DNA from: an uncultured Acidobacteriota bacterium | Lineage (GTDB): Bacteria > Acidobacteriota > Thermoanaerobaculia > Multivoradales > JAGPDF01 | DNA: 64,000 nt | Direction of reading: 5' to 3' | Assembly: GCA_963803995.1 (NCBI GenBank) | Contig: CAWDOT010000012.1 | Span: forward strand, 140,822-204,821 | Part shown: positions 24,131 to 58,600 of the stretch, piece by piece | How the letters are laid out: every line of letters begins with the position of its first letter | Position numbering within the stretch: position 1 is the stretch's first letter | Position numbers and translations under genes: made by a program | Notes under the pieces: model-generated | Database searches by the model: none | What the model was told of the DNA's origin: nothing | The model's input: only the letters and a program-made list of their open reading frames with translations

Positions 24131-24545
24131 CGGGTTTCGGGGACAGGCACCGGTTCCACCCCCAGGATCGCTTCGCCCCGGCGTCCCGGGGCGCGGCGGC
24201 GAACTGCTCCAGAGAAGGAGAGGTGCAGGCCCGGGACCGCAGGTCGCCCGATCGACCGGCCGCCGCCAGGCCCGGCGCGGCTCCTTCTCTGGAGCTTTTG
24301 CTTTGGGATTCGGGGACAGGCACCTTTCGGGTGCGGCCCCGGACAGGCCCGGGATCAGGCGCCTCACCCGGACTGGACACTTCCCCCTCGGCGTCCTCGG
24401 CCGCGGCGGCGAAAAGCTCCAGAGAAGGAAAGGCGCAGGCCCGGGTGCATCGGTCGCTTCATCGACCCGCCACCGCGAGGCCCGCCTCGGACCCTTCTAT
24501 GGAGCTTTTGCTTCTCGTTCCTCTCTGTCCTCCCGCTGCTTGAGA
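24131..24545. repeat. Long-hairpin repeat element, two tandem copies (B1 24131-24305, B2 24311-24545)
   Basis: Each copy begins GGGGACAGGCACC. B1 has a perfect 15-bp inverted repeat, GCTCCAGAGAAGGAG (24206-24220) and CTCCTTCTCTGGAGC (24281-24295). B2 has GCTCCAGAGAAGG (24416-24428) and CCTTCTATGGAGC (24493-24505) with one mismatch. Both end in CTGGAGCTTTTGCTT, and B2 adds a CT-rich tail. Confidence 0.8.
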
Positions 24546-39854: not shown

Positions 39855-39893
39855 CCCCGCCTTCGCCACCGCCCCCGCCCCGAAGGGGAACCT

Positions 39894-39932
39894 GGGGACA
39901 GGCACCCGCGGTGCCTGTCCCCGTTTCTTTTC
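39894..39932 (+). terminator. Rho-independent terminator after the S9 peptidase gene
   Basis: GGGGACAGGCACC-CGC-GGTGCCTGTCCCC, a perfect 13-bp stem, followed by GTTTCTTTTC. It begins 40 nt after the stop codon. Confidence 0.8.
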
Positions 39933-39952
39933 AGCAGAAGCCGGAGGCCAGG

Positions 39953-40260
39953 AGCTAGAAGCTAGAAGCTAAAAGCTAAAAGCTAAAAGCGAAAAGCAAA
40001 AGCTCCAGTTAAGGGGTTGTGGGCGGGGCGTCCGTGGCTCGATCTGGCAGCGGTGGCGCCGCTGAGGTCGCGAGGTGCGGCGGGAGGCTTCTCGAGGACG
40101 AGCGGTCTCGGGCGGCCACGGCCGCTCGATGGAGCCACCATCGCCACGCCCACAACCCCTTAACTGGAGCTTTTGCTGTTTTCCTTTTTCTTTGCTCTCT
40201 GCCTTGGGCGTCCTGGCTTCGAGGCAGGCCCTGGAGCTCTCTGTCTCGGCGGTTCTTCTC
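39953..40260. repeat. Long-hairpin repeat element, copy C, with perfect 30-bp terminal inverted repeats
   Basis: GCAAAAGCTCCAGTTAAGGGGTTGTGGGCG (39996-40025) and its exact reverse complement (40147-40176). It is preceded by seven tandem 7-mers GCTARAA (39954-40002) and followed by a CT-only tract. Confidence 0.9.
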
Positions 40261-43614: not shown

Positions 43615-44014
43615 TCACTGCTCCTTGCTCTCGGACTTCGCCGGGGCCTTGGCCTCGGCGAGGAACTCGGCGAACTGACGCGGCGTCGTCGACGCAGCTC
43701 ACCGCCAGGGTGCCGTCCGGATTCCGCTTGGCGACGGCGACCTGGAGGGTCTGGTCGCCGACCTGGAGCTTGCGGACGCCGGCGGCCGCGGGCGCCTGCG
43801 CGCGGACCGTCGTCACGTCCTTGTCGAACTGGACGCGGAAGCTGGCGACCGCCTGCTTCTGGGCCGGGGTCAACTTCGCCTCGACCGCCGCGGCGTTGGC
43901 GGCGGCCTTCTCGCGCGCGCTCGGCGCGTCGTCGGCGAGGGCGGGCAGGGTCCACCCGGCCAGGGCCAGGGCGAGACCGAGGAATGTTGCGACTCTCGAA
44001 GCTCTGCTTCTCAC
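43615..44014 (-). pseudogene. Small secreted hypothetical protein, one frameshift
   Basis: GTG 44014 preceded by GAGGAGG. Signal peptide VATFLGLALALAGWTLPALA. A shift at about 43680 restores the tail QFAEFLAEAKAPAKSESKEQ-stop, which ends 2 nt before the metalloprotease ATG. Confidence 0.55.
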
Positions 44015-44142
44015 GCTGGAAACCTCCTCTGGGTAAGCTCGCGGGACCGGGCGGGGTCCCGCGCATGTGGCGTCTGGATCGTCGGACTCTAGCAGATCGT
44101 CCCGGACCGGGAGCCCCGCCCGGGGCCTGCGGTCCGAATGGC

Positions 44143-46182
44143 TCACTGGGTGCAGGGGAACCCGGTGTCGGCTCCCGTCGCGCCGATCGTCTGGGGGTAC
44201 TGGCCGAGCGGGTTGCGGTAGTGGCGGGTCAGGCCCGAGTGGGTGTCGGTGATCGCGACGTCGTAGGCCTGGTTGGTCAGGCCCGAGACGAAGACCCAGT
44301 AGGCATCGAACGGCGGCACGCAGGCGTCGACCATCTTGACGCCCATCTCGAAGTTGGCCGCGTCGAAGAACCACCAGAACGAGGACTGGTCGGACGCGGC
44401 GCGCTGGCCGTCGAAGCTCATGACCTGCGCGGCGCCGCCGTCGGAGAGGGTGGTCCAGTCGACCTCCACCTGGAAACGGCCGCCGAGCTGGCAGGCCGTG
44501 TCGGCGTCGGCGACGCAGACCGTGGGCTCGCCGCTCGGCGCGAGCAGCGTCACGACGAGCTGGTAGGCGCCCTCGCCGTCGAAGCGGTGAGCCAGGAAAT
44601 TCCAGGTCCCGGCCGCCGGAGCGTCGACCACGATCGACTCGATGGTGCTCGGATTCTGGGAGGCGGCGTCGAACTCGGTCACCGTGGGCTGCGCGCCGGC
44701 GCGCGCGTAGAGGTCGCCGTCGAGCGGTCCGAACAGGTCGCCGACCAGCGTCGCGCGCAGCTGCTGGGTGCCGGCCGGCACTTCGACCGCGAAGGTGTCG
44801 TCGTCGTCGCCGCCGGCGAGCGAATCGGTCGATCCGGAGGAGGTGGAGCCGCCCCCGATCGGCGCCGCTCCGCAGGCCGAGGTGCCGAGGTCGGCGCCGG
44901 CGGTCGCTTCGATCCAGGCGCGGTTGTCGGGGACGTCGGCGAAGAAGCTCTCGCCGGGCGGCTGGCAGTCGAGCGAAGTGGTTCCCGAGCCCACCCCCGC
45001 GAGGCGTTGCACGCCGCCCTGGGAGATCAGCAGGGAGGCGCCGCCGTCGCCCAGGCAGAGCCCCGACTCCGTGCCCGGCGCGCCGAGCGGGGCGGTGAGC
45101 TGGACACAGACCTGGTCGTCGTCCGGAACGATCGAGCAGGCCGCGGTGACCCCCTGACCGGCGCGCCGGATCCCGAACGAGAAGTCGAGGCCGCCGGTCG
45201 CGCCGTAGCCGACCAGCGTGGCGGACAGGCCGCTGCCGATCTCGTCGCCGGTCGCCAGCAGGGTCGGCGCCGCGCCGGGCACCGCTTCGGCGAGCGTGAT
45301 CAGCGCGAGGTCGTGGCCGAGGGCGAACTGGTAGTCGGAGTGGATCGTGATCCCCGCCAGTCCGAAGACGCCGTAGTGGGGGAGGAAAACCTGCTTGTCG
45401 TCGAGCGCGAGCAGCTCGTTGGCCTGAAGGCACTCCTCGCCGGTCAGATCCTGGCCGCAGATGCAGCTCGCCGCGGTGAGGAAGCTCGAGCAGCCGATCA
45501 GCGTGCCGCCGCAGCCGCCCTCGGGGGTCAGCAGCATGCCGGTGGCGGGGAAGTCGACCGAGGGCAGCGCGTTGACCAGGTGCTCGCGCGGCGCGGGCGC
45601 CGGCGCGGCGGCGGCCAGGGCGGCGGCCGGGAAGCGGGCCGCCAGCGGGTCGGCGGGCGCGGCGGCGAGCAGGGTCCGGACCTGATCGGGGGTCGGCGCG
45701 GGGGCAAGCGCTCCGCCGCCCGGCGTGCAGTCGAAGCCGCTGACGCCGTCGGTGGCGCCGATCGTCTGCGGATAGGTGCCGAGCGGATTCGAGTAGGTGC
45801 GGGTCTCGAGGGTGACGGTGTCCTGGATGGTCACCTCGAAAGCCTGGTTGGTGAGCCCCGAGACGAACACCCAGAAGCTGTCGTTGAAGGAGCAGGCGTC
45901 GACCATCTTGACGCCCATCTCGAAATTGGCGTTGTCGAAGAACCAGAAGAACGCCGACTGGTCCGACTCGGCGCGGGCGCCGTTGAAGCTCATCACGTTC
46001 GCCGCGCCGTTCGAACCGGCCGTGGTCCAGCCCACCTCGACGGCGAATCGGCCGGAGAGCAGACAGGCGGTGTCGGCGTCGGCGCCGCAGGCGGCGCGCG
46101 CGGGGACGGCGGCGAGCGGCAGCAGGAACGCCGCGGTGAGAAGCGCGGCCGCGCTGCCGGTCCCTCGGCTCTGGTGGCTCAT
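44143..46182 (-). CDS. Secreted trypsin-fold protein lacking catalytic His and Ser (pseudoprotease), with a PPC-like domain and flanking four-Cys domains
   Basis: Intact 679-aa ORF, ATG 46182 preceded by GGAGAGGAG, with a signal peptide. S1-fold blocks are present but altered: LTAASC where TAAHC is expected, HDLALITL (Asp kept), and CLGDGGASL where GDSGGP is expected. A pre-peptidase C-terminal-like module is DDDDTFAVEVPAGTQQLRATL...GAYQLVVTL. The four-Cys domains lie at 45727-46092 and 44146-44520. Confidence 0.8.
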   Translation of the reverse strand: MSHQSRGTGSAAALLTAAFLLPLAAVPARAACGADADTACLLSGRFAVEVGWTTAGSNGAANVMSFNGARAESDQSAFFWFFDNANFEMGVKMVDACSFNDSFWVFVSGLTNQAFEVTIQDTVTLETRTYSNPLGTYPQTIGATDGVSGFDCTPGGGALAPAPTPDQVRTLLAAAPADPLAARFPAAALAAAAPAPAPREHLVNALPSVDFPATGMLLTPEGGCGGTLIGCSSFLTAASCICGQDLTGEECLQANELLALDDKQVFLPHYGVFGLAGITIHSDYQFALGHDLALITLAEAVPGAAPTLLATGDEIGSGLSATLVGYGATGGLDFSFGIRRAGQGVTAACSIVPDDDQVCVQLTAPLGAPGTESGLCLGDGGASLLISQGGVQRLAGVGSGTTSLDCQPPGESFFADVPDNRAWIEATAGADLGTSACGAAPIGGGSTSSGSTDSLAGGDDDDTFAVEVPAGTQQLRATLVGDLFGPLDGDLYARAGAQPTVTEFDAASQNPSTIESIVVDAPAAGTWNFLAHRFDGEGAYQLVVTLLAPSGEPTVCVADADTACQLGGRFQVEVDWTTLSDGGAAQVMSFDGQRAASDQSSFWWFFDAANFEMGVKMVDACVPPFDAYWVFVSGLTNQAYDVAITDTHSGLTRHYRNPLGQYPQTIGATGADTGFPCTQ

Positions 46183-46208
46183 GGCGATCTCCTCTCCGGC
46201 GGCGCCGG

Positions 46209-48365
46209 TCAGTCCATCAGGGGCAAATAGGCGGACTCGGCGTACTCGCGCACCATGCGGTCGCTCGAGAACTTCGGCGTGATGGTGGCGATCGCCTCCT
46301 TCATCATCGCCACCCAGCGGCGCGGGATCTGCTGCTCGTCGCGGTCGTAATAGGCGGGCACGATCTGCTCCTCGAGCAGGTGGTAGAGCGCCAGGGCGTC
46401 CTCGCGGTCGCGCGCGGCGTCGTCGCCCGCCACCTCCTTGCCGGCGATCACCCAGCCGTTCCTGCCGTCGTGGCCCTCGGGCCACCAGCCGTCGGCGATC
46501 GAGCAGTTGAGGGCGCCGTTCATCGCCGCCTTCATGCCCGACGTGCCGGAGGCCTCGAGGGGCCGCTGCGGCGTGTTGAGCCAGACGTCGACGCCCTGGA
46601 CCAGCATGCGCGCCACCCGCATGTCGTAGTCCTCGACGAAGAAGACGCGTCCCTTCAGCTTGTCGGACTGCGAGAGCTGGAAGAGGTGGGCGATCAGGCC
46701 CTGCCCCTCCTTGTCGGCGGGGTGGGCCTTGCCGGCGAGCAGGATCTGCACCGGCCGCGCCGGGTCGGAGACGAGCTGGCGCAGGCGGTGGAGGTCGGAG
46801 AAGAGCAGGCCGGCGCGCTTGTAGGTCGCGAAGCGACGCGCGAAGCCGATGGTCAGGACCTCCGGATCGAACATCTGCTCGACATTGCGCAGCTCGTCGG
46901 GCGACAGCCCGTGGCGCGCGAACTGGTCGCGCAGGCGCGACCGCAGGAAGCGCGCCAGCCGCCGCTTCTGCTCGAGGTGGGCTTCCCAGAGCTCCTCGTC
47001 GGGACCCTCGAGGATGGCGACCTTGCCGGTCTCGCTGGCGAGCACCTGGGACCACTTCTCGCCGAACCAGCGCGCGAAGAGCTCCTGCAGCTCGACGCCC
47101 AGCCAGGTCGCGGGGTGGACGCCGTTGGTGACCGCGCGCATGCGCTCGGCCTCGGGCAGCGTCTCGGGCAGCAGGTGGTTCCACATCCGGGCCGAGACCT
47201 CGGCGTTCAGCTTCGAAACGCCGTTGACCCGCGCGCTCGTGCGCAGCGCGAGCGCGGTCATGTTGAACGGCTGGTTGGGCTCGCCGTGGTCGTTGTTGCC
47301 GAGCGCCAGCCAGCGCTCGGGCGGCACGCCGAGCGCGAGCCAGAAGCGCTCGAAGTACTTGCGCACGAGCGGCGGATCGAAGACCTCGTTGCCCGCGGGC
47401 ACCGGCGTGTGGGTGGTGAAGACCGAGCGCCGCCGGATGCCGGGGAGAATCGACTCGAAGTCGCCCTCGCCGGCCTCCATCGCGCGGCGGATCCGTTCGA
47501 ACTGGAGGAAGGCCGAGTGCCCTTCGTTCATGTGCCAGACGCTGGGCTCGATGCCGAGCGCCTCGAGCGCCCGCACGCCGCCGACGCCGAGCACCACCTC
47601 CTGCGCCAGCCGCATCTCGCGGCCCGGCGTGTAGAGCATCGAGGTGATCGGGCGGTCGGCGGAGTCGTTCTGCGGCACGTCGGTGTCGAGCAGCACGAGC
47701 GGCACGCGGCCGACCTGGGCCACCCAGACCAGCACCCGGATCTCGCGGTCGGGGAAGGGCACCGTGACGTGGACGACGCGTCCGGTGGGCCCCGACGCCG
47801 GCCGCACCGGCAGGCGCGAGAAGTCGTAGTCGGGGTAGTTGTGCTGCTGGCGGCCGTCGGCGTCGATGGTCTGCCGGAAGTAGCCGTTGCGGTAGAGCAG
47901 GCCGACGCCGACCAGGGGCAGGCCGAGGTCGCTCGCGCTCTTCAGGTGGTCGCCGGCGAGGACGCCGAGGCCCCCGGAGTAGAGCCGGAGCGACTGGTGC
48001 AGGCCGAACTCCATGCAGAAGTAGGCGATGGTCCCCCTGGCCTCGGGAAAACGGCGGGCGAACCAGGTCTCCGCGGGTTCCGCCGTGTAGCGCTCGAACG
48101 CCTGCGTCACCTGGCGGTAAGCGGCGACGAAGCTGTCGTCCTCGAGCCGGGACTGCCAGTGGGTGCGGTCGAAGTTGATCAGGAGCTGCACCGGGTTGCG
48201 GTAGAGCGCCCAGGCGCGGCTGTCGATCTGATTGAAGAGGGCACGCGCCCGCGGGCTCCACGACCACCAGAGGTTGTAGGCGAGGTCGTAGAGCTTGGCC
48301 ACCTCGCGCGGCAGGTCGATGTCGGCGATGTGCAGGCGGGGGATCGGCTTCCAGTCTCGGGTCAT
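46209..48365 (-). CDS. glgP: Alpha-glucan (maltodextrin/glycogen) phosphorylase, short GT35 type
   Basis: Intact 718-aa ORF. N-terminal DUF3417-like LAYNLWWSWSPRARALF, GGLGVLAGDHLKSASDLG, AGKAHPADKEGQ, and the PLP-Lys region EASGTSGMKAAMNGALN. Confidence 0.9.
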   Translation of the reverse strand: MTRDWKPIPRLHIADIDLPREVAKLYDLAYNLWWSWSPRARALFNQIDSRAWALYRNPVQLLINFDRTHWQSRLEDDSFVAAYRQVTQAFERYTAEPAETWFARRFPEARGTIAYFCMEFGLHQSLRLYSGGLGVLAGDHLKSASDLGLPLVGVGLLYRNGYFRQTIDADGRQQHNYPDYDFSRLPVRPASGPTGRVVHVTVPFPDREIRVLVWVAQVGRVPLVLLDTDVPQNDSADRPITSMLYTPGREMRLAQEVVLGVGGVRALEALGIEPSVWHMNEGHSAFLQFERIRRAMEAGEGDFESILPGIRRRSVFTTHTPVPAGNEVFDPPLVRKYFERFWLALGVPPERWLALGNNDHGEPNQPFNMTALALRTSARVNGVSKLNAEVSARMWNHLLPETLPEAERMRAVTNGVHPATWLGVELQELFARWFGEKWSQVLASETGKVAILEGPDEELWEAHLEQKRRLARFLRSRLRDQFARHGLSPDELRNVEQMFDPEVLTIGFARRFATYKRAGLLFSDLHRLRQLVSDPARPVQILLAGKAHPADKEGQGLIAHLFQLSQSDKLKGRVFFVEDYDMRVARMLVQGVDVWLNTPQRPLEASGTSGMKAAMNGALNCSIADGWWPEGHDGRNGWVIAGKEVAGDDAARDREDALALYHLLEEQIVPAYYDRDEQQIPRRWVAMMKEAIATITPKFSSDRMVREYAESAYLPLMD

Positions 48366-48381
48366 CGAGTCTCTCTTCGAA

Positions 48382-50665
48382 TCAGTCCTCGGGCGGTCGC
48401 GCCCACTCGGGCTCGATCTCGGGGAACGGCAGGTCGAGGTCCGCCCAGGCCGGGAGGCGGCGCGCGCGGGGTCCGAGGTCGATCACTTCGCGCAGTCGCG
48501 CGCAGTGCTCGCGGAAGCGCATCTCGGCGTAGTCGCGCCCGGTACCCATGGTGACCAGGAAGGGCCAGTCCGAAGCCGCGGCGAGCAGGAGCTGGTTGAG
48601 GATCGTCCGCCGCCACTTGCGCGACCCGCCCCAGCGCACGGCGGCGAAGGCGCGCCGCTCGAGGTCGGCGAGCTCCCACCAGAACCACTCGGTCTCGGGG
48701 TTGACCCAGACCCGATGATCGCCGCCGGCGCCCCACGAGCCCTCGGCGAAGAAGGCGCGGCGCAGCGCCGGCTGGGCGTCGAGCTCGTGGGACGGCGTGG
48801 TCGCCTCCACCGCGGCGCCGGGCGCCGCCAGCTCGAGCACCCGCTCGAGCCAGACCGGACCCTCGAACCACCAGTGCCCGAACAGCTCCATGTCGAAGGG
48901 CGCGCAGACCACGCCACCGCCCATGCCGTCGAGGCCGGCCGCCAGCGCGAGGAAGTGCTCCGCCTGCTCGTGGGCGCGCGCGCGCGCGTCCTCCGGCCAG
49001 TAGACCAGCTTGTCCGCCATGTCGACCTGGCTCTGGGTCACGCGCCAGAGGCGCAGCCCGGAAGGCCAGTGGCGCTTGTGGAAGTCGAGGAAGGCGCCGT
49101 CGCCCGGATAGCCGCCCTGGCTCGACCAGACCTGCGCGGCGCTGCGCGCGTCGCGCAGGAACGCCGCGACGGCGCTCTGGCGGATCCAGTAGGGGCGGGG
49201 GTGCGGTCCGCCCGGCTCGACCACCTGGTCGGGCGGCAGCTGGGAGCCGTAGGGGAAGGCGGGGTCGCCGGCGCGCACCAGGTGGGCGTCGACCACCGTC
49301 CAGTTGAGCCCCTGTTCGGCGAGGAAGAGCTCGTTGCCGGGGCGGCTCTCCTCGGAGGCGCCGGTGACCGGATGGCGCCAGGGCCCCCCCGGCCGGTAGG
49401 CGCACTCCGGCATCCAGCAGCCGCGCGGATCGATGCCGAACAGCTCGCGGTGGCTCTCGCGCCCGGCGCGCAGCGCCAGCCGGATCAGCTTCGAGGTGTG
49501 CGCGAGCGGCAGGTAGACGTGAGTGCCGGCCGAGGTGGAGAGCTCGATCGTGTCGTTCTCGGCGAGCGCCGCGAGCGCCGTCACGAGGTTCTTGTCGAAG
49601 GACTCCCAGAGCCCCTTCAGCCGCTGGTACTCGCCGTGCCACCAGAGGGCGAGCGGGTGGCGCTTGCGCGTCTCCCAGGCGGCCTTGGCGCGCTCGGCGA
49701 GATAGCGGTCGACGACGCCGACCGTGCGCGGGTCGGCGAGCATGGCGCCGACCACCGGGGTCACCGAGACCGTCGCGACGTGGCGTCGCCCCTTCCCGCC
49801 CAGCCGCCGGAAGACGTCGAGGAGCGGTAGGTAGCAGTGCGCGATCGCCTCCGCCAGCCAGTCCTCGCCGTGGGGCCAGGTGCCGTGGCCGAGCACCCAG
49901 GGCAGGTGCATGTGGAGGACGAAAGCGATCCGGCGCGGCGAACCGTCGACGCGGCCGGAGGCGGCGGCCGTGAAGGCGGGCGGCTCGAGCGGCGGCCGCT
50001 GCTTGAACTGGGAAGAGGATCCGCTCGCGCTCGGCCGCGCTGAGCCGGACGCCGGCGGCGGCCGCGGGCCCGACCGGCGCCTCCGGTTCGCTCCCGCCCT
50101 CGGCCCCGCCGCCGACCTCGACTCCGCCCCCGACCCCGACCGGGACGCCCACTTCGCCCGGCTCGGGCTGGAACTCGACCGGCGTCGTCAGCACCGAGCG
50201 CGGCGGCGGCTCCGGCCTGGCCGCCTCGCCAGCGAGCTTAGGCAACTCGGCGAAAGGAGGGAGGCCAGCCCGGGACGGAGGCTGGTCTTCGGAAGGCAAA
50301 AGCTCCATAGAAGGGGTCGTGGCGGGCGAGGCGCCCTTGCGAGTCCGGCGCTTCGTGGGGGCGGCAGCGCCCTCCGGTTTGGCCTTGGCAGCCGCCTTGC
50401 CCTTTGCGCCCGACCCGGCCTTCGAATCCGGTTCGCCACGCCTGCCGGCGGCGGCCGCTGCGCTCGCCTTTACGCCCTTTCCTTGGGCTCCCGCTGCCTT
50501 CTTCGGGCTGGTGGCGGTCCGGCGGCGGCGCGACTCCGCGTTCGGAAGCCCCGAACTCGCCTCGGCAGCTTCAGCGACCTCGACCGCAGGCTTTTTTTCC
50601 TTAACTGGGCTTTTGCTGTTCTTTACTTTGGGCGTGCTTCCCTTCGCCTTCGGCCGGTCGCTCAT
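48382..50665 (-). pseudogene. GH57 1,4-alpha-glucan branching enzyme with a ~230-aa Lys/Ala/Pro-rich N-terminal extension, one frameshift
   Basis: GH57 core IAFVLHMHLPWVLGHGTWPHGEDWL, GCWMPECAY and FDMELFGHWWFEG (ORF 48382..49911). No start codon lies in frame just upstream of the core. The only ATG (50665, ATGA overlap with the DHH stop) opens a different frame that meets the core frame at about 50005. The extension is therefore plausible but unproven. Confidence 0.7.
50296..50640. repeat. Long-hairpin repeat element, copy D, inside the putative N-extension coding region
   Basis: Left end GCAAAAGCTCCATAGAAGGGG (50296-50316). Right end CCTTAACTGGGCTTTTGC (50599-50616) plus TGTTCTTTACTTTGGGCGT, similar to the copy C right flank TGTTTTCC...CCTTGGGCGT. 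Confidence 0.65.
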
Positions 50666-51795
50666 CGCGCTCGCTCGCTTTCCGCCGCGGCGCGCGCTTC
50701 GCGCGCCACGTCGCCGCCGTTGGGCTCGATCGGCGCCTCGCGCGCGGCGCGCGCGGGCGCGACTTCGAGCGGCAGGAGCTTGTCGGGGTTCTTGCGCAGC
50801 GCGGCGGCGAAGCGGCGAGCGAGCTGGCGCTCGACGGTCCGGGTCGTTTCCGGGTGGAGCTCGTCGACCACGATGAAACCGCCGGCGAGGGTGCCGTGAC
50901 CGCCGCCCTTGCCGCGCTTGCCGATCAGCCGGCGCATCAGGTTGCCGGCGTCGGCGCGCGGATTGGTCGTCCGGATCGACAGGTAGAGCCGGTCGCCGTG
51001 GCTGCCGGTGCAGAGCGACCAGGTCTTGCCCTCCATCCGCAGCAGCAGGTCGGCGATCTCCGGCACGATGTCCGGCTGGTCGACGCGGCCGAGGTTGGAG
51101 ACGATCAGATTGCCGACGCCGGCCAGACCCTCGATCGCGCGGTGGAGGATCTGGAAGTAGGAGAAGGGGAGCCGCGCGGTCTGAATGCGCGCCAGCATCC
51201 GGCGGTCGATGCGCGGCAGCAGGCGGTCGTACGCGGCGTGGTCGGGGCCCGCGGCCTCCCGGCCGAAATCCTGGGTCTCGGAGCGGATCGCGTAGACCAG
51301 GCCGGTCGCCAGCGCCCGCGGCGGCGCGATCCCGGCGGCCTCGAGGTACTCGGCGAGGATCGTCGCGGTGGCGCCATAGGCGGGGCGGACGTCCGCCAGC
51401 CGCGCCGACTGGGTCGCCTTGCGCATCGGGTGGTGGTCGATCACGAGGTCCGGCACGACCCCCTTGGGCAGCTGCGAGTTCCCGGTCCAGGGCTGGCAGT
51501 CGACCAGCGCGAAGTGCTGATAGTCGCGTCTCTTCAAATGCCGCAGGTGCGAAAGCTCCAGCTTCAGGCTGCGCACCATCTCCCGGTTCTCGGCCCGCCC
51601 GATCATGCCGCCGTAGGCGACGGTGGTCCGACGCCGGAAGCGCCGCCGGAGGATCAACGACAGCACCGCGGTCGCCGCCAGGGCGTCCGGGTCGGGGTTG
51701 TCGTGGGTGAGTACCAGCCAGCGGGCGCGGGGCGAAGTGGCTTCGACCTCAGCGGCGAAGGCGGCGAATCGCGCCCTCGTCTCGTCGCTCGTCAT
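50662..51795 (-). CDS. DHH-family phosphoesterase (NrnA-like)
   Basis: 377 aa. Motifs THDNPDPDALA, VIDHHP (DHH) and GKGGGHGTLAG (DHHA1 GGGH). Confidence 0.85.
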   Translation of the reverse strand: MTSDETRARFAAFAAEVEATSPRARWLVLTHDNPDPDALAATAVLSLILRRRFRRRTTVAYGGMIGRAENREMVRSLKLELSHLRHLKRRDYQHFALVDCQPWTGNSQLPKGVVPDLVIDHHPMRKATQSARLADVRPAYGATATILAEYLEAAGIAPPRALATGLVYAIRSETQDFGREAAGPDHAAYDRLLPRIDRRMLARIQTARLPFSYFQILHRAIEGLAGVGNLIVSNLGRVDQPDIVPEIADLLLRMEGKTWSLCTGSHGDRLYLSIRTTNPRADAGNLMRRLIGKRGKGGGHGTLAGGFIVVDELHPETTRTVERQLARRFAAALRKNPDKLLPLEVAPARAAREAPIEPNGGDVAREARAAAESERAR

Positions 51796-51868
51796 CGGGT
51801 GAGGATCCTAGCATCCGGGCCTCCACCCCTCCGCTATACTTCCCGCGCCTTCAGCCGAGGCCGCCCGC

Positions 51869-53094
51869 ATGAAAAGAGTGCTTTTCCTCTCCCCCGGATA
51901 CCCGAGCGAGATGCCGCAGTTCGTGCGCGGCCTCGGCGAGGTCGGCGCGGCCGTCTACGGCGTCGGCGACCAGGCCGAGGGAATGCTGCCCGCCGCGGTC
52001 CGGCGCACCCTCTCGGGTTACCTCCGGGTGTCCTCGTTGTGGGACGAGGAGGCCGTCGTCGCGGCGGTCCGGGAGTGGCGCGAGCTGGGGGCCCCCGACC
52101 GTGTCGAGTGCCTCTGGGAACCGGGCATGCTGCTCGCCGCGCGGCTCCGCGAGGCCCTGGGAGCCCCCGGGCTCGGGGTCGAGCGGACCATTCCGTTCCG
52201 CAACAAGGAGCGGATGAAGCAGGTGCTCGACGCCGCCGGGATCCGCACTCCCCGCCACCAGGCGGCGCAGAGCGCGGCCGGGATCTGGGAGGCCGCCGAG
52301 CGGATCGGCTTTCCCGCTGATCGTCAAGCCGATCGCCGGGGCGGGCTCGGCGGACACCCATCGGGTCGAGAACCGCGACGAGCTGGCGCGCGTGGTCGCC
52401 GCCGTCCGCGCACGTCGAGGAGGTCTCGCGTCGAGGAGTTCGTCGACGGCGAGGAGTACACCTACGACACGGTCTCGATCCGGGCGTGCCGGTCTACCAC
52501 AACATCGCCTGGTACCGGCCGCGGCCGCTGGTGGCGCGCACCAACGAGTGGATCAGCCCGCAGGTGGTGGCGCTGCGCCACCCCGACCAGCCGGCAGCTC
52601 GCCGCGCGGCGTCGAGATGGGGCGGGCGGTGCTCGCCGCGCTCGGCTTCGAGTACGGGGTTCACCCACATGGAGTGGTACCACAAGGCCGATGGCGAGGT
52701 CGTGTTCGGGGAGATCGGCGGCCGGCCGCCGGGCGCGCACCAGGTCGACCAGATGAACTACGCCTGCGAGCTCGACGTCTTCCGCGGCTGGGCCGAGGCG
52801 GTCGTCCACGGCAGCTTCACGCAGCCGGTCGAGCGGCGCTACAACGTCGCCAACGTCTACAAGCGCGCCGAGGGCGAGGGGCGCATCGCGCGCGTCGAGG
52901 GGCTCGACGGGTTCAAGCGCCGCCATGGCGCGGCCGTGGTCTGGGACAACCTCCTGCCGGTCGGGGCCCGCCGGCGCAACTGGAAGCAGACGCTGGTGTC
53001 GGACGGCTTCCTGGTGATCCGCCATCCCGACCTCGCCACCACGCTCGCGATGGCCGACGAGTTCGGCCGCGAGGTGCGGCTCTACGCCGCCTGA
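51869..53094 (+). pseudogene. ATP-grasp ligase paralog 1, at least 6 frameshifts
   Basis: MKRVLFLSPGYPSEMPQFV..., FRNKERMKQVLDAAGIRTP, IGFP/LIVKPIAGAGSAD, VEEFVDGEEYTYDTVSI, GFTHMEWYHKADGEVVFGEIGGRPPGA, ending REVRLYAA-stop 53092-53094. Shifts at about 52314, 52400, 52420, 52480, 52605 and 52657. Confidence 0.8.
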
Positions 53095-53101
53095 GGAGAG
53101 C

Positions 53102-54346
53102 ATGCCGAACGTCGTCTTCGTAGCCCCCTTCTTCCTCGACACGACGCTGCGCTTCGTCGACTCGGTCGCGTCGCTCGCGGGCGTGCGGACCGGCGCTGGT
53201 CAGCCAGGACCCGGCCGACAAGCTCCCGCCCGGGCTGAAGAGCCGCCTCGATTCCCACCGGCGCGTCGGCGACGGCCTCGACCCCCGTCAGATCGCCGAG
53301 GCGACCCGCTCGATCGCCCGCGAATGGGGCGGGAAGGTGGACCGGCTGATCGGCGCGCTCGAACAGCTGCAGGTGCCGCTCGGCGAGGTGCGCGAGGCGC
53401 TCGGGATCGAGGGCATGGGCGCCGAGACGGCGCGCAACTTCCGCGACAAGGCGCGCATGAAGGACGTGCTGCGCGCGGCAGGGCCTGCCCTGCGCTCGCC
53501 ACGCGCGCCTGACCGACGACCGAGGCGGCCTGGCGCTTCGCCGAGCGAGGTCGGCTACCCGCTGGTGCTCAAGCCGCCGGCCGGTGCGGGCGCCAAGTCG
53601 ACCTTCCGGATCGCCGACGCCGAGCGAGCTGCGCGAAGCGCTCGCCGCTGGCGCGGCCGACGCGCGGAGCGGCCGGCGGTGCGTCGAGGAGTTCGTCATC
53701 GGCGACGAGCACTCGCTTCGACACCGTGCTCGATCCGCGGCCGCGCCGTCTGGCACTCGATCTCCCACTACCTGCCGGCGCCGCTGCACGTGGTCGACAA
53801 CCCGTGGATCCAGTGGTGCGTGGTGTCGCCGCGCGAGATCGACCACCCCCGCTACGACGAGATCCGCAAGGTCGGGCTCGCGCCGCGCTCGAGGCGCTCG
53901 GCATGGGCACCGGCCTCTCGCACATGGAGTGGTTCCGGCGCCCGGACGGCCGGGTCGCGGTCTCCGAGGTCGGGGCGCGGCCGCCGGGCGCGCAGATCAC
54001 GTCGCTGATCTCCTACGCCCACGACCTCGACTTCTACCGGGCCTGGGGCCGGCTGGTGGTGTTCGACCAGTTCGACGCCGCCGCAGCGCGCTTACGCCGC
54101 CGGCGCCGCCTACCTGCGCGGCCAGGGCGAAGGGCGGGTCCGCGCCATCCACGGGCATCGAACCGGCGCCGCGCCGGCTCGGCGACCTGGTGGTCGAGAA
54201 GCGGCTGCCGCAGATCGGGCCAGTCGCCCTCGGCGAGCTACGAGGGCGACGGCTACGTGATCGTCCGCCACCGCGAGACGCGGGCGGTGGACGGAGCGCG
54301 TCTGAAATGTCCTGATCTCGCGAACGTCCGAGTGGAGCTGGGATGA
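53102..54346 (+). pseudogene. ATP-grasp ligase paralog 2 (more divergent), about 10 frameshifts
   Basis: ATG 53102 after GAGGAGAG. MPNVVFVAPFFLDTTLRFV, FRDKARMKDVLRAAG, VGYPLVLKPPAGAGAKSTF, VEEFVIGDEHSFDTV, LSHMEWFRRPDGRVAVSEVGARPPGAQI, ending NVRVELG-stop 54344-54346. The sequence is readable only by hopping frames between about 53195 and 54200. Confidence 0.75.
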
Positions 54347-54350
54347 GCGC

Positions 54351-55571
54351 ATGAACATCCTCATGATCTCGCCGGGCTACCCGGCGGAGATGACCTACTT
54401 CACCCGCGCCCTCGCCGCGGTCGGCGCGCGGGTCATCGGCGTCGGCGACCAGCCGCGCGACGGCGCTGCCCGCAGATGGCCCGCGAGCACGTCGCCCACT
54501 ACCTGCAGGTCCGCTCGCTCTGGGACGAGCCGGCGGTGGTGCGCGAGGTGCACGAAGCTGGCTCACCAGGTGCGCATCGACCGGGTCGAGTGCCTGTGGG
54601 AGCCGGGCATGATCCTCGCGGCGCGGCTGCGCGAGGCGCTCGGCCTGCCCGGCATGGACGTGGCGCAGACGATGCCCTTCCGCGACAAGGAAGTGATGAA
54701 GCAGGTGCTCGACGCCGCCGGCATCCGCACGCCGCACCACCACCGGGCGCTGACTCGGACCAGGTGCGCGAGGCCGCCGAGCGGATCGGCTACCCGCTGA
54801 TCGTCAAGCCGATCGCCGGCGCCGGCTCGGCCGACACCTACCGCGGCGACAGTCGCGCCGAGCTCGAGCGCGCGCTGCCCATGGTCCGGCACGTCGAAGA
54901 GGTCAGCGTCGAGGAGTTCATCGACGGCGAGGAGTTCACCTTCGACACGATCTGCGCCGACGGGCGAGATCCTGTTCGAGAACGTCTGCTGGTACCGGCC
55001 GCGGCCGCTCGTCCAGCGCCAGAACGAGTGGATCAGCCCGCAGACGGTCGCGCTGCGCGACCTCGACCAGCCCGACCTCGCGGCGGGCCGGCGCATGGGA
55101 CGCGAGGTGCTCCGCGCGCTCGGCTTCCGCACCGGCTTCACCCACATGGAGTGGTACCGCAAGGCCGACGGCGAGGTGGTGTTCGGCGAGATCGGCGGCC
55201 GGCCGCCCGGCGCGCGCACGGTCGACGTCATGAACTACTGCACCGACAACGACATCTACGCCGCGTGGGCGGAGGCCGTCGTCCACGGCCGCGTCGAGCG
55301 CCGCTTCGAGCGCAAGTGGAACGTGGTCTGCACCTTCAAGCGGGCCCAGGGTCAGGGGCACATCCAGCGCATCGTCGGGCTCGACAAGGTCCTGCACGAC
55401 CTCGGGCCCTTCGTCGTCGAGGTCGACCTCACCCCGGTCGGCGCGCCGCGCAAGAACTGGAAGCTGTCGATCGTCAGCGACGGTTACGTCGTCGTCCGCC
55501 ATCCCGAGCTCGGCCCGGCGCTCGCCATGGGCGACCGCATCGCCCGCGAAGTCCACCTCTACGCCGGCTGA
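54351..55571 (+). pseudogene. ATP-grasp ligase paralog 3, at least 4 frameshifts
   Basis: MNILMISPGYPAEMTYFT, FRDKEVMKQVLDAAGIRTP, IGYPLIVKPIAGAGSADTY, VEEFIDGEEFTFDTICADG, GFTHMEWYRKADGEVVFGEIGGRPPGA, ending REVHLYAG-stop. Shifts at about 54460, 54560, 54750 and 54965. About 90% nucleotide identity to paralog 1 in the FTHMEWY block. Confidence 0.8.
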
Positions 55572-55647
55572 GGCCGGTCCGCCGCCCACCGGCGCCGGCG
55601 GCGAACCGATTCGGCGCTTTTCCGTATCTCCTGCTGGAGGAGTTCCC

Positions 55648-58600
55648 ATGTCCCGATTCCGTCTGCTCGCCCCCGGTCTGCTCCTGTCATCCGTCCTCGC
55701 GCTCTCCGGCCGCCCGGCCGCGGGCGCCGATCCCGCCCTCTGGCTGCGCAGCCCGGCGATCTCGCCGGACGGGTCGACCATCGCCTTCAGCTACCGGGGC
55801 GATCTCTGGACCGTGCCGGCGGGCGGTGGCGCCGCCACGCCGCGCACGCTGAACGCCGGCTACGAGACCGCACCGGTCTGGTCGCCGGACGGCAGCCGGA
55901 TCGCCTTTGCCTCGGACCGCTACGGGAACTTCGACGTCTTCGTGATGCCGGCCGGCGGCGGCGAGGCGACCCGCCTCACGTTCCATTCGGCCGACGACGT
56001 TCCGACCAGCTTCACCCCCGACGGCAAGGGGGTGCTCTTCTCCTCGGCGCGGCTCGACGCCGTGACCAACGCCCAGTACCCCAGCCCGGCCCAGCCCGAG
56101 CTCTACCGGGTGGAGCTCGCCGGCGGCATGCCGGTCCAGGTGCTCTCGACGCCGGCCCCCTATGCCGTCTGGGACCGCGCCGGGGAGCGCCTCGCCTACT
56201 CCGACCAGAAGGGCTACGAGATGGAGTGGCGCAAGCACGACAACTCCTCCTTCGCCCGCGACGTCTGGATCTGGGACCGCGCGGCGAACAGCCACCGGCG
56301 GCTGACCGCCCTCGGCTACGACGATCGGCAGCCGGTCTGGGCGCCGGACCAGGGTTCGCTCTTCTATCTGTCGGAGAAGAGCGGCAGCTTCAATGTCTGG
56401 AAGCTCTCGCTCGAGGATCCCGAGCACCCGGTCCAGGTCACCACCCACGCCACGCATCCGGTTCGCTTCCTCTCCGCCTCGGCGGCGGGGGACCTCTGCT
56501 ACACCTGGGACGGCGAGATCTGGGTGCGCCCGGCCGGCGCCGCCGACAGCCGCAGGCTCGAGGTGAGCGCGGCGGTCGACCGTCGCGACCTCGCGATGGC
56601 GCCGGTCGACGTCGCGAGCGAGATCTCCGAGTTCGCGCTCTCGCCGAACGGCGAGGAGATCGCCTTCGTGGCCCGTGGCGAGGTGTTCGTCGCCTCGGTC
56701 GAGCACGGCGTGACCCGCCGCATCACCGACACGCCCGGCCAGGAGCGCTCGGTGACCTTCTCGCCCGACGGCAAGAGCCTGCTCTATGCCGCCGAGCGGG
56801 GTTCGAGCTGGGACGTCTACCGCACCGACCGCACCGATCCGCAGGAGCCGGCCTTCTTCAACGCCACGGCGCTCAGGGAGAGCGCCGTCGTCGCCACGGA
56901 CGCCGAGGAGTTCCAGCCCCGCTTCTCGCCCGACGGCAAGGAGGTCGCCTATCTCGAGGAGCGCACCGAGCTCAAGGTGATCCAGCTGGCGAGCGGCAAG
57001 ACCCGCGTCCTGCTGCCGGGCGACAGGAACTACTCCTACGCCGACGGCGACCAGTGGTACGAGTGGTCGCCGGACGGACAGTGGGTGGCGGTCCAGTTCC
57101 TCTCGCCGACGCGCTGGTCCTCCGAGGTCGGCCTGGTGCCCGCCTCCGGCCAGGGCGAGGTGATCAACATCAGCAGGAGCGGCTACGAGGACTCGTTCCC
57201 GCGCTGGGCCGGCAAGGGCGAGCTGCTGCTCTGGGCGAGCGACCGCCACGGCGCGCGCGAGCAGGCGGGATGGCCGCGCGAGCAGGACGTCTTCGCCGCC
57301 TTCCTGACCCGCAAGGCCTGGGATCGCTTCGGGCTCGACGAGGCGGGCTATGCCCAGCTCGTCGAGAAGGAGAAGGAGGCGGAGAAGAAGAAGGACGGGG
57401 AGAAGGACAAAGGCAAGGAGAAGGTCAAGGGCGAGGAGAAGGCGGGCGACAAGGCGGCGGGCGCGGAGGAGAAGGCGGTCAAGCTGCCCGACCCGGTGAC
57501 GCTCGAGCTCGAGGCGATCGAGGACCGCGTCGTCCGCATCTCGATGCACTCGGCCGACCTCGCCGCCGCCGACCTGACTCCGGACCGCGAGACGCTGGTC
57601 TACCTGGCGCGCTTCGAGAAGGGCTACGACCTCTGGAAGTACACGCCGCGCAGCAAGGAGATCGAGCTCGTCGCCAAGCTCGGGGCCGAACGCTCGGCCG
57701 ACCTCCGGCTCATCGCCGAGGGCAAGAAGGCGATCGTGCTCGCCGACGACCATCTGGTCGAAGTCGACCTCGAGTCGGGCAAGACCAAGCCGGTCAGGGT
57801 CGCCGCCCGGCTCGAGCTCAAGGCCGCCGAGGAGCGCGCGGCGCTGTTCGAGCACGCCTGGCGCCAGACCTGGAAGAAGTTCTACGTGGACACGATGCAC
57901 GGCGTCGACTGGCCGGCGATGAAGGCCGCCTACGCCCGCTTCCTGCCCTACATCGACAACAACCGGGACTTCGCCGAGCTGATCTCGGAGATGCAGGGCG
58001 AGCTCAACGCCTCGCACACCGGCGGGCGCTACCGGCCGACGCGGCCGGACGCCGACGTCACCGCCGCGCTCGGCTTCTTCCCCGACCCGGCCTGGAGTGG
58101 CGCCGGCGTGAAGATCGCCGAGGTGCTCGAGGGGGGGCCGCTGCAGCAGGCCGCGACCAGGGTGAAGAACGGGGTGGTGATCGAGGCGATCGACGGCGGG
58201 AGGATCGAGCCCGGCGCCAACTGGTACCCCCTGCTCAACCGCAAGGCGGGCAGCCGCGTACGCCTCGCCCTCTTCGACCCGCAGTCCGCGAATCCCGCGG
58301 CCGCGCGCTGGGAGGAGACGGTCAAGCCGATCACGCCGCAGGAGCAGGCGCCTCTGCTCTACGAGCGCTGGGTGCGCGCGCGCCGCGCCGACGTCGAGCG
58401 GCTGTCGGGCGGCCGCATCGGCTACGCCCACATCCGGGGCATGAACGACGGCGCCTACCGGGAGATCTTCGAGGAGATCTTCGGCCGCGCCGTCGACAAG
58501 GAGGCGATCGTGCTCGACACGCGCTTCAACGGCGGCGGCAACCTCGTCGAGCCCCTCACCGTCTTCCTGTCGGGCCAGGTCTACTACCGGTCGGTCCCGC

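What the first reader, a model, noticed from the sequence alone, without database searches (positions are those of the whole stretch)
50296..50665. A copy of the repeat element lies inside the putative N-terminal extension of the GH57 gene
Family ends are present at 50296-50316 (GCAAAAGCTCCATAGAAGGGG) and 50599-50616 (CCTTAACTGGGCTTTTGC). The right flank resembles that of copy C. On the coding (minus) strand, the reverse complement of these sequences translates to MSDRPKAKGSTPKVKNSKSPVKEKK... and ...ATTPSMELLPSED.

There are two readings. The element may have been exapted into a Lys-rich protein extension. Alternatively this is intergenic DNA, and the true GH57 start is hidden by the indel at about 50005. 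For the first reading: the ATG at 50665 overlaps the DHH stop (ATGA), and no start codon lies in frame just upstream of the GH57 core. Against it: in DNA this GC-rich almost any frame stays open, and a frameshift is needed to join the two parts.
Basis: partly seen in the sequence, partly recalled or inferred. Interest (0 to 1): 0.6.

Follow-up and report, generated by a model that had tools for sequence, protein, structure and literature searches.

The report
Repeat element translated inside GH57 gene
The stretch is the real, translated start of a glycogen-branching-enzyme gene, and part of its lysine-rich tail comes from a palindromic repeat that is normally found between genes; the break in the reading frame is almost certainly a sequencing error.

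Summary
Both family ends lie exactly where stated (50296-50316 and 50599-50616), in inverted orientation. No such match is expected by chance.

The region 50015-50665 (minus strand) is coding, not intergenic. Every GH57 orthologue examined starts at an ATG that overlaps the DHH stop (ATGA) and carries a basic, disordered N-terminal extension. P0002 reads almost identically (…TTPSMELLPSDGQPPSRAGLPPFAELPK…).

The frameshift is one extra base in GGG 50010-50012. It is absent from three orthologous contigs and from every public contig of near-identical strains that spans the site. The same comparison shows dozens of other 1-nt indels nearby, so an assembly error is the likely cause.

The element copy has lost the long hairpin, but its ends are among the best-conserved DNA in the extension. 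They use codons that are almost absent from the gene core, which points to constraint on the nucleotide sequence.

The same family sits in frame inside trpC and rsmE genes of related Thermoanaerobaculia, and close trpC orthologues lack the insert. This is a new example of the kind known from Rickettsia palindromic elements. Whether the element-derived peptide has a function is not shown.

The parts
50662..51795 (-). DHH/DHHA1 phosphoesterase gene. Its TGA stop (50662-50664) overlaps the GH57 ATG.
   Evidence: Pfam DHH 6.5e-08 and DHHA1 2.5e-07. The same DHH-GH57 4-nt overlap is seen in L025, L026, L027 and L029, and as DNA in L001 and L002.
50663..50665 (-). ATG start of the GH57 gene (ATGA, translationally coupled to DHH).
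   Evidence: The start is conserved in all orthologous loci with upstream DNA.
50015..50665 (-). N-terminal extension, 217 codons read in the frame of ATG 50665. Residues 1-124 are basic (pI 11, net +19) and residues 125-217 are acidic and Pro/Gly-rich.
   Evidence: Translation. It aligns to P0002 and P0003 along its length with indels in whole codons. dN/dS is 0.37-0.55 against 0.16 in the core. Composition.
50594..50616 (-). Gene-proximal (5' in gene sense) end of the repeat element: GCAAAAGC-CCAGTTAAGGAAAAA, read as SKSPVKEK.
   Evidence: The same end is in L001 (GCAAAAGCTCAGTTAAGGG). A shared 1-nt deletion relative to the family consensus removes an in-frame TAA (inference from sequence). 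15/21 positions are identical in three lineages.
50617..50642 (-). Purine-rich remnant (on the coding strand) of the microsatellite that flanks family ends; read as PKVKN.
   Evidence: All 8 metagenome family members and L008 have a (GAA/AAG)-rich tract directly outside the 21-mer. L001 has GAAGAGAAGAAAAGC at this position.
50317..50598 (-). Element interior, 282 nt, encoding a Lys/Arg/Ala-rich low-complexity peptide. No long hairpin remains.
   Evidence: The RNA fold of 50290-50622 has z = -1.1, against z = -13.1 for intergenic copy 39990-40182. The interior is poorly conserved between orthologues.
50296..50316 (-). Distal (3' in gene sense) end of the element: CCCCTTCTATGGAGCTTTTGC, read as (T)PSMELL(P).
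   Evidence: It matches the family consensus 21/21. L001 and L002 match 20/21, and a 13-nt core survives in L026. 19/21 positions are identical in three lineages, against a 36% mean for the extension. It uses CCT, TCT, CTT and TTG, codons used 0-1 times in the 515-codon core (GC3 0.96).
50180..50200 (-). Conserved extension motif RSVLTTP (part of PEPPPRSVLTTP).
   Evidence: 19/21 three-way DNA identity. The motif is present in P0001-P0004, P0006, P0008 and P0015.
50010..50012 (.). GGG run carrying one base too many. This is the only frame break between the extension and the core.
   Evidence: L001, L002 and L003 all have one base fewer here. Public contigs of near-identical strains in runs X1-X4 all omit one base at 50010/50013. 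Examples are a 61-nt contig with 0 mismatches and 1 gap, and a 573-nt contig.
48382..50009 (-). Rest of the GH57 gene in the core frame: conserved QFKQRPPLEPP linker, GH57 catalytic domain and BE_C domain.
   Evidence: Pfam Glyco_hydro_57 3e-21 and BE_C 1.1e-10. Orthologues are 77-94% identical. P0001 reads AAERERILVQFKQRPPLEPP without interruption across the break.
46209..48365 (-). Alpha-glucan phosphorylase gene, downstream in the same unit.
   Evidence: Pfam Phosphorylase 9.3e-32 and DUF3417 1.4e-30. Synteny is kept in L002, L026 and L027.

Best explanation
Window 48382-50665 (minus strand) is one gene for a GH57 1,4-alpha-glucan branching enzyme. It carries an N-terminal extension of about 220 residues that looks intrinsically disordered. 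Translation starts at ATG 50665, which overlaps the stop of the upstream DHH gene.

The apparent frameshift is one spurious base in GGG 50010-50012, in an assembly rich in indel errors. Without it the protein reads ...AAERERILFQFKQRPPLEPP...IAFVLHMHLPW.

Codons about 12-124 of the extension derive from a copy of a palindromic repeat family of Thermoanaerobaculia. A family member consists of a purine-rich microsatellite, the 21-nt end GCAAAAGCTCCAKWKAAGGRG, a GC-rich interior and the inverted end. Most copies in this window lie between genes.

Inferred steps: the copy entered the 5' part of the gene, or the gene start moved upstream over it, before the window, P0002 and P0003 lineages split. 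It was kept in frame, helped by a 1-nt deletion that removes a TAA in the proximal end. It lost its long hairpin, and it is now translated as part of the basic tail. Its AT-rich ends are kept nearly unchanged against the strong GC3 bias of the gene. The ends therefore appear constrained at the DNA or RNA level, or homogenised with other copies, and not selected as peptide.

Shown here: the coding status, the conserved start, the extra base, the identity of the ends, their conservation, and parallel in-frame copies in trpC and rsmE. Not shown: translation in vivo, the mechanism of spread, and any function of the ends or of the basic tail.
For: Ends and family:
-.

Coding status:
- P0002 (759 aa) and P0003 carry the same extension.
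- DNA alignment shows whole-codon indels and a conserved ATGA start.
- In four more orthologues the called gene overlaps the DHH stop by 4 nt.
- dN/dS is 0.37-0.55 in the extension and 0.16 in the core.
- The core frame has no start codon upstream of 49911.

Extra base:
- It is absent in L001, L002 and L003 and in all spanning contigs of four public runs.
- Twelve further 1-nt indels are listed and 24 more indel sites were not shown in 44000-56000 against the same kind of contigs.

Conservation of the ends:
- 19/21 and 15/21 three-way identity against a 36% mean.
- Rare T-ending codons in a gene with GC3 0.96.
- The hairpin is lost: z = -1.1 against -13.1.

Parallels in other genes:
- L008 trpC has an insert of about 100 aa reading KSKSSIEGG...FPSMELFSS. 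P0121 and P0122 share it, and the nearest orthologues P0124 and P0125 lack it.
- L018 rsmE has the exact 21-mer plus microsatellite, read as NPFSGAFASSFLFSFSSSS. The DNA motif is conserved with rare codons in orthologues down to 58% identity.
- L012 trpC and an L013 RNase-H-like gene also carry it.
Against: - No proteomic or ribosome-profiling evidence exists. RNA evidence is only one 151-nt metatranscriptome contig from a relative, spanning 50560-50710.
- The contigs that lack the extra base come from close relatives (95-100% identity), not demonstrably the same strain. The one run with 100%-identical contigs nearby (X6) has nothing over 50010. A private, real frameshift is therefore not excluded.
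- No clean empty-site orthologue was found for GH57. Orthologues without detectable ends (P0004, P0006) still have a basic extension, and degenerate PSxE(S/L)(L/F) motifs are scattered over the tree. Insertion cannot be told apart from a start codon migrating over a formerly intergenic copy.
- No target-site duplication, transposase or RAYT was identified.
- Alignments in low-complexity sequence make the dN/dS values rough.
Confidence: 0.8

Rival explanations
1. The frameshift is real in this strain. The extension and the catalytic core are uncoupled, so the GH57 gene is a recent pseudogene or is expressed only as a truncated or out-of-frame product. The rest of the main explanation (coding ancestry, embedded element) still holds.
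For: The window sequence itself carries the extra base. The public contigs that lack it are from relatives, and the one run with 100%-identical contigs has no coverage at 50010.
Against: Every other sequence that spans the site lacks the base, including a 61-nt contig identical apart from that gap. The same assembly differs from public contigs by many 1-nt indels in the neighbouring, highly conserved ATP-grasp genes. An earlier follow-up, e1-2805156, independently judged those to be sequencing errors. The core shows no other damage and is 94% identical to P0001.
Confidence: 0.1
2. The likeness to the repeat family is not ancestry. PSMELL and SKSxVK would be short protein motifs of the extension that resemble the repeat ends by chance or convergence.
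For: Degenerate PSxE(S/L)(L/F)S peptides recur in many GH57 orthologues, which could suggest a peptide motif.
Against: The distal end matches the family consensus 21/21, with 0.00 matches expected by chance. Similarity extends to 41 nt. The second end is present in the correct inverted orientation with the family's flanking purine tract. The same DNA ends are read in a different frame in rsmE, in L012 trpC and in L013 (PFSGAF, PLTGAF, PFYGAF). The motif uses codons otherwise avoided in this gene. Selection on a peptide would not preserve synonymous T-ending codons.
Confidence: 0.05
3. 50015-50665 is intergenic DNA holding an ordinary non-coding element copy. The true GH57 start lies close to the core and is hidden by the indel.
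For: In 72.5% GC DNA long open frames arise by chance (one search lists many overlapping ORFs). The family is mostly intergenic in this window.
Against: No ATG, GTG or TTG exists in the core frame upstream of 49911, and a start there would remove the conserved IAFVLH strand. Orthologues keep the frame open from the ATGA start with whole-codon indels and conserved peptide motifs (PEPPPRSVLTTP, ILFQF(K/E)QRPPLEPP). Substitutions are commonest at third codon positions and dN/dS is below 1.
Confidence: 0.03
4. The extra base is real, and a programmed +1 ribosomal frameshift at CUC UUC C CAG joins the two parts.
For: Only that a +1 shift at this point would restore the orthologous protein sequence.
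Against: No relative has the extra base, so a programmed site would not be conserved. The site has no stop or rare 'hungry' codon and no known +1 motif (read from the sequence; own knowledge of prfB-type sites).
Confidence: 0.01

Closest known systems
Rickettsia palindromic elements (RPEs; Ogata et al. 2000, Science 290:347, as summarised in the review PMC10969869)
   Same: Both are short palindromic repeats dispersed in the genome. Copies lie in frame inside unrelated housekeeping genes and are translated as extra peptide segments that the host protein tolerates. Copies are inherited by orthologues in related species.
   Different: There is no sequence relationship, and the phylum differs (Acidobacteriota, class Thermoanaerobaculia, against Alphaproteobacteria). 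The genome here is about 72% GC and the element ends are AT-rich. Ends are flanked by purine/pyrimidine microsatellites. In this window most copies are intergenic long hairpins. The same end is read in at least two frames in different genes.
Intragenic ERIC, BOX and other bacterial MITEs that form in-frame fusions (Delihas 2007 and others, cited in PMC10969869)
   Same: Terminal inverted repeats, small size and no transposase of their own. They are mostly intergenic, with occasional copies that extend or interrupt ORFs in frame.
   Different: No target-site duplication or parent IS was identified here. An earlier follow-up on intergenic copies (e1-2805149) found them inherited at fixed sites instead of jumping. 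Presence and absence is shown here only for trpC.
REP / BIME / REPIN elements with RAYT transposases
   Same: Inverted pairs of a conserved short motif around a variable spacer, forming hairpins after genes and resembling terminators.
   Different: REP elements are extragenic by definition, whereas this family tolerates coding positions. No RAYT could be looked for. The conserved 21-mer has no internal palindrome of its own.
GH57 glycogen branching enzymes (Pfam PF03065 + PF09210)
   Same: The core 48382-49929 has both domains and the motifs WMPECAY and FDMELFGHWW. It sits beside a glucan phosphorylase gene.
   Different: It carries a 220-residue N-terminal extension (basic, then acidic) that the 520-563-aa archaeal and Thermoanaerobaculum relatives lack. 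More distant acidobacterial relatives carry a Fis-type HTH domain at that position instead.

Membership tests
GH57 1,4-alpha-glucan branching enzyme | Glyco_hydro_57 catalytic domain plus BE_C C-terminal domain | tested here: met
   PF03065 3e-21 and PF09210 1.1e-10 on the core frame.
GH57 1,4-alpha-glucan branching enzyme | Conserved catalytic-region motifs (Glu in W-x-P-E-C-A-Y, Asp in F-D-x-E-L-F-G-H-W-W, His pair at the N-terminal strand) | tested here: met
   GCWMPECAYRPG, APFDMELFGHWWFEG and IAFVLHMHLPW are present in the translation. Assigning catalytic roles rests on my own knowledge of GH57 and was not tested.
Thermoanaerobaculia palindromic repeat family (undescribed; type copy 39953-40260) | 21-nt end GCAAAAGCTCCAKWKAAGGRG | tested here: met
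   50296-50316 matches 21/21. 50599-50616 matches with a 1-nt deletion, the same AAGCCCA variant seen at 19847-19864 and in L015.
Thermoanaerobaculia palindromic repeat family (undescribed; type copy 39953-40260) | Two ends in inverted orientation bounding a variable interior | tested here: met
   The ends are 321 nt apart in inverted orientation. Other copies span about 105-270 nt.
Thermoanaerobaculia palindromic repeat family (undescribed; type copy 39953-40260) | Purine-rich (outside left) and pyrimidine-rich (outside right) microsatellite flanks | tested here: inconclusive
   Only remnants are present: AAAGTAAAGAAC outside the proximal end and CTTCC outside the distal end. L001 keeps GAAGAGAAGAAAAGC.
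Thermoanaerobaculia palindromic repeat family (undescribed; type copy 39953-40260) | Whole element folds into a long GC-rich hairpin | tested here: not met
   z = -1.1 for 50290-50622 against z = -13.1 for 39990-40182. Only the terminal motifs can pair. It is therefore a decayed or remodelled copy.
[quoted passage not shown] | Copies lie in frame inside ORFs of unrelated genes | tested here: met
   GH57 (this window), trpC (L008, L012), rsmE (L018) and an RNase-H-like gene (L013).
[quoted passage not shown] | Orthologues without the insert exist (empty site) | tested here: inconclusive
   Met for trpC: P0124 and P0125 lack the insert of about 100 aa. Met for rsmE: P0266 and P0268 lack PFSGAF. 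Not resolved for GH57.
[quoted passage not shown] | Sequence homology to a described RPE family | not tested
   No RPE sequences were compared. Rfam found nothing in the window. Homology is not expected across phyla, so the claim is 'works like', not 'is a member'.
MITE | Target-site duplications and a parent IS or transposase with matching terminal repeats | not testable with these tools
Flanks are microsatellites, which hide any duplication.
Programmed ribosomal frameshift site | Frameshift conserved in relatives, with a slippery or stall motif | tested here: not met
   Relatives lack the extra base.

The most novel reading that the evidence does not exclude
The 21-nt AT-rich end motif may be a functional nucleic-acid signal that is maintained even where it lies inside coding sequence. 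It could be a binding site for a dedicated trans-acting protein or an RNA processing or decay signal. The copies in GH57, trpC and rsmE would then be dual-use sequence, both codons and cis-element. The family would be a still-spreading, RPE-like source of new protein segments in Thermoanaerobaculia, not decaying junk.
Probability: 0.2. Interest if true: 0.7.

Novelty: new member of a known kind. Interest (0 to 1): 0.45.

Why it matters
For annotation, the GH57 gene of this genome should be called as one gene of about 760 codons from ATG 50665. The frame break should be treated as an assembly error, not as a pseudogene or a 509-aa product.

For biology, an undescribed palindromic repeat family of an uncultured acidobacterial class is not purely extragenic. 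It has been built into at least three or four housekeeping proteins and carried along for long evolutionary times. In-frame translated repeats have been described mainly for Rickettsia (RPEs) and, in isolated cases, for a few other bacteria such as enterobacteria and cyanobacteria (PMC10969869). A second, independent, high-GC example would help to test whether such elements are tolerated passengers or a source of new disordered protein segments.

The ends keep rare AT-rich codons in genes with GC3 of 0.86-0.96. That gives a concrete, testable hint that the motif itself has a function.

Tried and rejected
- The genome search (own genome) and the fetch from genomes were closed. No genome-wide census of the family, no search for a transposase or RAYT, and no look at this genome's own trpC and rsmE were possible.
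- The genome-contig scan with the 21-mer gave 8 loci, 7 of them chance hits in unrelated low-GC genomes. Only L008 is a true family member, and the window's own genome was not hit.
- In the metagenome scan, 8 of 13 loci were real.
- Rfam at gathering threshold found no match in the window.
- Pfam found no domain in the extension.
- A look for same-strain reads over 50010 (X6 and its study-mates, X8) found no coverage.
- The metatranscriptome runs X25-X28 were too sparse to show co-transcription or to cover 50010.
- A look-up of earlier findings by the element sequence returned nothing.
- The idea that the two ends still form a conserved RNA helix in the mRNA was not supported. L001's T-to-C change in GCTTTTGC gives an A·C mismatch with no compensating change (read), and the overall fold is no better than shuffles.
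- The polypurine Lys/Glu insert in the tricorn-like protease (57364-57483) was checked as a possible further in-gene copy. It has no end motif.
- Target-site duplications for the trpC insert were not pursued, because the nearest empty-site orthologue is too diverged (75%) in that linker.
Full report
**1. What is in the sequence**

GCAAAAGCTCCATAGAAGGGG (50296-50316) has four relatives in the window with up to 3 mismatches: 24281, 24491, 39996 and 40156. Shuffles give 0.00 expected matches. CCTTAACTGGGCTTTTGC (50599-50616) is unique at up to 3 mismatches. It is the family end with one base missing, compared with CCTTAACTGGAGCTTTTGC in copy C.

The other window copies lie between genes. There are two tandem copies of about 105 nt at 24197-24513, and a 181-nt copy at 39996-40176 that folds into a near-perfect hairpin (z = -13.1). 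A further copy at 19516-19935 has an expanded 16-nt microsatellite.

On the minus strand the frame from ATG 50665 reads MSDRPKAKGSTPKVKNSKSPVKEKK...TTPSMELLPSED...AAERERILF. The GH57 core (IAFVLHMHLPW...) is in another frame. That frame has no ATG, GTG or TTG between a stop at about 50188 and ATG 49911. ATG 50665 overlaps the DHH stop as ATGA.

**2. The region is coding**

The GH57 core found 1075 homologues. The closest come from Thermoanaerobaculia MAGs and metagenomes and are 585-760 aa long, while the domain core is about 520 aa.

P0002 (759 aa, 88% identical in the core) carries the same extension: MSEGPKVKDGTVEEKKSKSSVKGKG...ATKRRTRKGAPPATTPSMELLPSDGQPPSRAGLPPFAELPK...PEPPPRSVLTTP.... 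P0001 (94%) reads AAERERILVQFKQRPPLEPP straight across the point where the window changes frame. P0004 and P0006 read ILFQFQQRP and ILFQFEQRP.

I fetched the DNA of eight orthologous loci. In L025, L026, L027 and L029 the called GH57 gene overlaps the DHH stop by 4 nt. The same ATGA is in the DNA of L001 and L002. In L002 the gene caller chose a later start, but the frame is open from the ATGA.

Between the window and L001 or L002 the extension differs by whole-codon indels, and differences are commonest at third positions. Nei-Gojobori dN/dS is 0.37-0.55 in the extension and 0.16 in the core. Alignment of low-complexity sequence makes these values rough. This is the pattern of a weakly constrained, disordered protein segment. 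Residues 1-124 have pI 11 and net charge +19, residues 125-217 have pI 4.4, and only 13% of residues are hydrophobic.

**3. The frameshift**

In the DNA alignment the window has ATCCTCTTCCCAGTTCAAG where L003 has ATCCTCGT-CCAGTTCAAA. L001 and L002 have the same one-base gap. The extra base lies in GGG 50010-50012 on the plus strand.

I laid public contigs from four metagenome runs (sludge and sediment) on 49700-50700. Every contig that spans the site omits one base at 50010 or 50013. One is a 61-nt contig with no other difference, and another is 573 nt long.

The same comparison over 44000-56000 lists twelve further 1-nt indels, with 24 more indel sites not shown. They are concentrated in the conserved ATP-grasp genes at 52-55 kb. 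An earlier follow-up (e1-2805156) had independently called those sequencing errors.

These contigs come from close relatives, not provably the same strain. The one run with 100%-identical pieces does not cover 50010. I therefore put an assembly error at about 0.85-0.9 and a private real mutation at about 0.1. A programmed frameshift is not supported, because no relative has the base.

**4. The element copy inside the gene**

In gene sense, the proximal end (50594-50616) is read as SKSPVKEK and the distal end (50296-50316) as PSMELL.

A scan of orthologous extensions gave the following:
- The distal end matches 20/21 in L001 and 20/21 in L002.
- A 13-nt core (CCCTTCTATGGAG, read FPSMESLS) is present in L026.
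- A degenerate form is present in L028.
- Nothing is detectable in L025, L027 or L029.
- The proximal end is recognisable in L001 and more weakly in L002 and L029.

On a tree of the cores, the near-consensus copy is confined to the clade WINDOW, P0001, P0002 and P0003. Degenerate PSxE(S/L)(L/F)S peptides are scattered elsewhere. The copy is therefore old. It is at least as old as that clade and possibly as old as the whole 40-sequence group. No clean empty site was found for GH57.

In a three-way DNA alignment the extension averages 36% identical columns. The distal end scores 19/21, tied for best with the RSVLTTP motif, and the proximal end scores 15/21. The distal end is written in CCT, TCT, CTT, TTG and CCT. 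In the 515-codon core (GC3 0.96) these codons occur 1, 0, 0, 0 and 1 times. They are unchanged in lineages whose extension dS is about 0.6-1.6. That pattern argues for constraint on the nucleotide sequence, or for repeated homogenisation with other copies, and against selection on the peptide.

The interior no longer forms the family hairpin (z = -1.1).

One detail suggests filtering for an open frame. The 'GTT' variant of the end would read AGC TCC AGT TAA in this frame. Both the window (AGC CCA GTT AAG) and L001 (AGC TCA GTT AAG) carry a 1-nt deletion that avoids the stop. This is read from the sequences and is an inference.

**5. The same family inside other genes**

The 21-mer pattern found one true relative among species-representative genomes (L008, Acidobacteria bacterium BJ1) and eight among metagenome contigs. 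All are at least 67% GC, and all have a (GAA/AAG)-rich microsatellite directly outside the end.

- **trpC, L008.** The element lies inside trpC, between trpD and trpF. The Pfam IGPS match starts at residue 139, which is profile position 29. The insert reads (EEKSR)x4-KSKSSIEGG...FPSMELFSS...LPSLELLSPE, in the same frame as in GH57.
- **trpC relatives.** P0121 and P0122 share the insert. The nearest other orthologues (P0124 and P0125, 75% identical) and nearly all of the 120 listed Thermoanaerobaculia TrpC are 260-270 aa long and lack it.
- **trpC, L012.** This copy carries one end read in another frame (HPLTGAFASSSS).
- **rsmE, L018.** The exact 21-mer plus microsatellite lies inside rsmE, just before the LLIGPEGGW motif, and is read NPFSGAFASSFLFSFSSSS. 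PFSGAF or PLTGAF persists in orthologues down to 58% identity and is absent in P0266 and P0268. The DNA stays CCCTTCTCTGGAGCTTTT or CCCCTAACTGGAGCTTTT, with rare codons, in genes of GC3 0.86-0.89.
- **RNase-H-like gene, L013.** The open frame that contains this gene's RNase_H_2 domain also runs through an element end (TPFYGAFASSSS), but no start codon was established there.
- **Intergenic copies.** Five of the metagenome copies look intergenic.

**6. Interpretation and comparison**

The closest known phenomenon is the Rickettsia palindromic element. RPEs are palindromic repeats found in frame in many unrelated genes and inherited by orthologues (Ogata et al. 2000, as summarised in PMC10969869). 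Intragenic ERIC, BOX and cyanobacterial MITEs are looser parallels.

This is a likeness in behaviour, not membership. Earlier follow-ups on intergenic copies (e1-2805149, e1-1484055) described conserved arms, drifting middles, fixed chromosomal sites and a terminator-like role. My results agree on conserved arms and vertical inheritance. They add that the family is not purely extragenic.

A full-text search for Thermoanaerobaculia together with 'repeat' and 'palindromic' found only one general genomics paper, so I found no description of this family.

**7. What remains open**

- Translation in vivo is inferred, not observed.
- The function of the basic tail is unknown. More distant acidobacterial GH57 relatives carry a Fis-type HTH at the same position. 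This makes a nucleic-acid or polyanion-binding role for the N-terminus a reasonable guess and no more.
- Why the AT-rich ends are preserved is also unknown.

**Verdict**

The second reading is refuted. The frameshift is an artefact with high probability. The finding is a new member of a known kind and of moderate interest.

Noticed in passing
window 52310-54753: At least eleven 1-nt indels are listed here, and 24 more indel sites in 44000-56000 were not shown, relative to public contigs of close relatives. They fall in the three ATP-grasp genes, so this assembly is rich in indel errors and frame breaks elsewhere in the window should be distrusted.
   Followed up: partly
L008 553-1662 (Acidobacteria bacterium BJ1, JACTMI010000024.1): trpC carries an in-frame insert of about 100 aa. 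It is made of a (GAAGAGAAAAGCAGA)-type microsatellite (EEKSR x4), a complete element and a second distal end. Close orthologues lack it.
   Followed up: yes
L018 (Ga0316605_10407493), minus strand, around 358-378: rsmE carries the exact 21-mer plus a pyrimidine microsatellite in frame, just before the LLIGPEGGW motif. The PFSGAF/PLTGAF motif and its DNA are kept across orthologues down to 58% identity.
   Followed up: yes
P0044, P0045, P0048, P0060 (GH57 relatives, about 50% identity): These acidobacterial GH57 branching enzymes have an N-terminal Fis-type helix-turn-helix (HTH_23/HTH_8, residues about 19-54) where this clade has the basic disordered tail. An enzyme with a DNA-binding-type N-terminus is unusual.
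   Followed up: partly
window 57364-57483: A Lys/Glu-rich low-complexity insert (EKEKEAEKKKDGEKDKGKEKVKGEEK) in the tricorn-like protease is encoded by polypurine DNA like the element flanks. It has no 21-mer end.
   Followed up: partly
window 39950-39995 and 19544-19649; L015; L008 650-715: The DNA just outside the element ends is repeatedly expanded into different microsatellites: a 7-nt AGCTAAA unit, a 16-nt unit and a 15-nt unit. This suggests that slippage is seeded by the end sequence.
   Followed up: no
window 24135-24150, 24309-24325, 39893-39925: A second motif, GGGGACAGGCACC, stands 60-100 nt upstream of each intergenic element copy. At 39893-39925 it forms its own small hairpin. No clear counterpart was seen near the GH57 copy.
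   Followed up: no
P0220 (TrpC relative, 333 aa), N-terminus: This protein has an N-terminal extension reading ...KSKSRSKSFLLKGKDKDHDEDKSKSLLLKGKSKSKG.... It looks like two more translated end-like motifs in front of the TrpC helix. Its DNA was not examined.
   Followed up: no
window 50298-50335, run X26 (metatranscriptome, sludge): A 153-nt contig from a run labelled RNA matches the element end and 17 nt beyond it exactly (one gap), then diverges. It is probably another copy of the family that is transcribed elsewhere.
   Followed up: no
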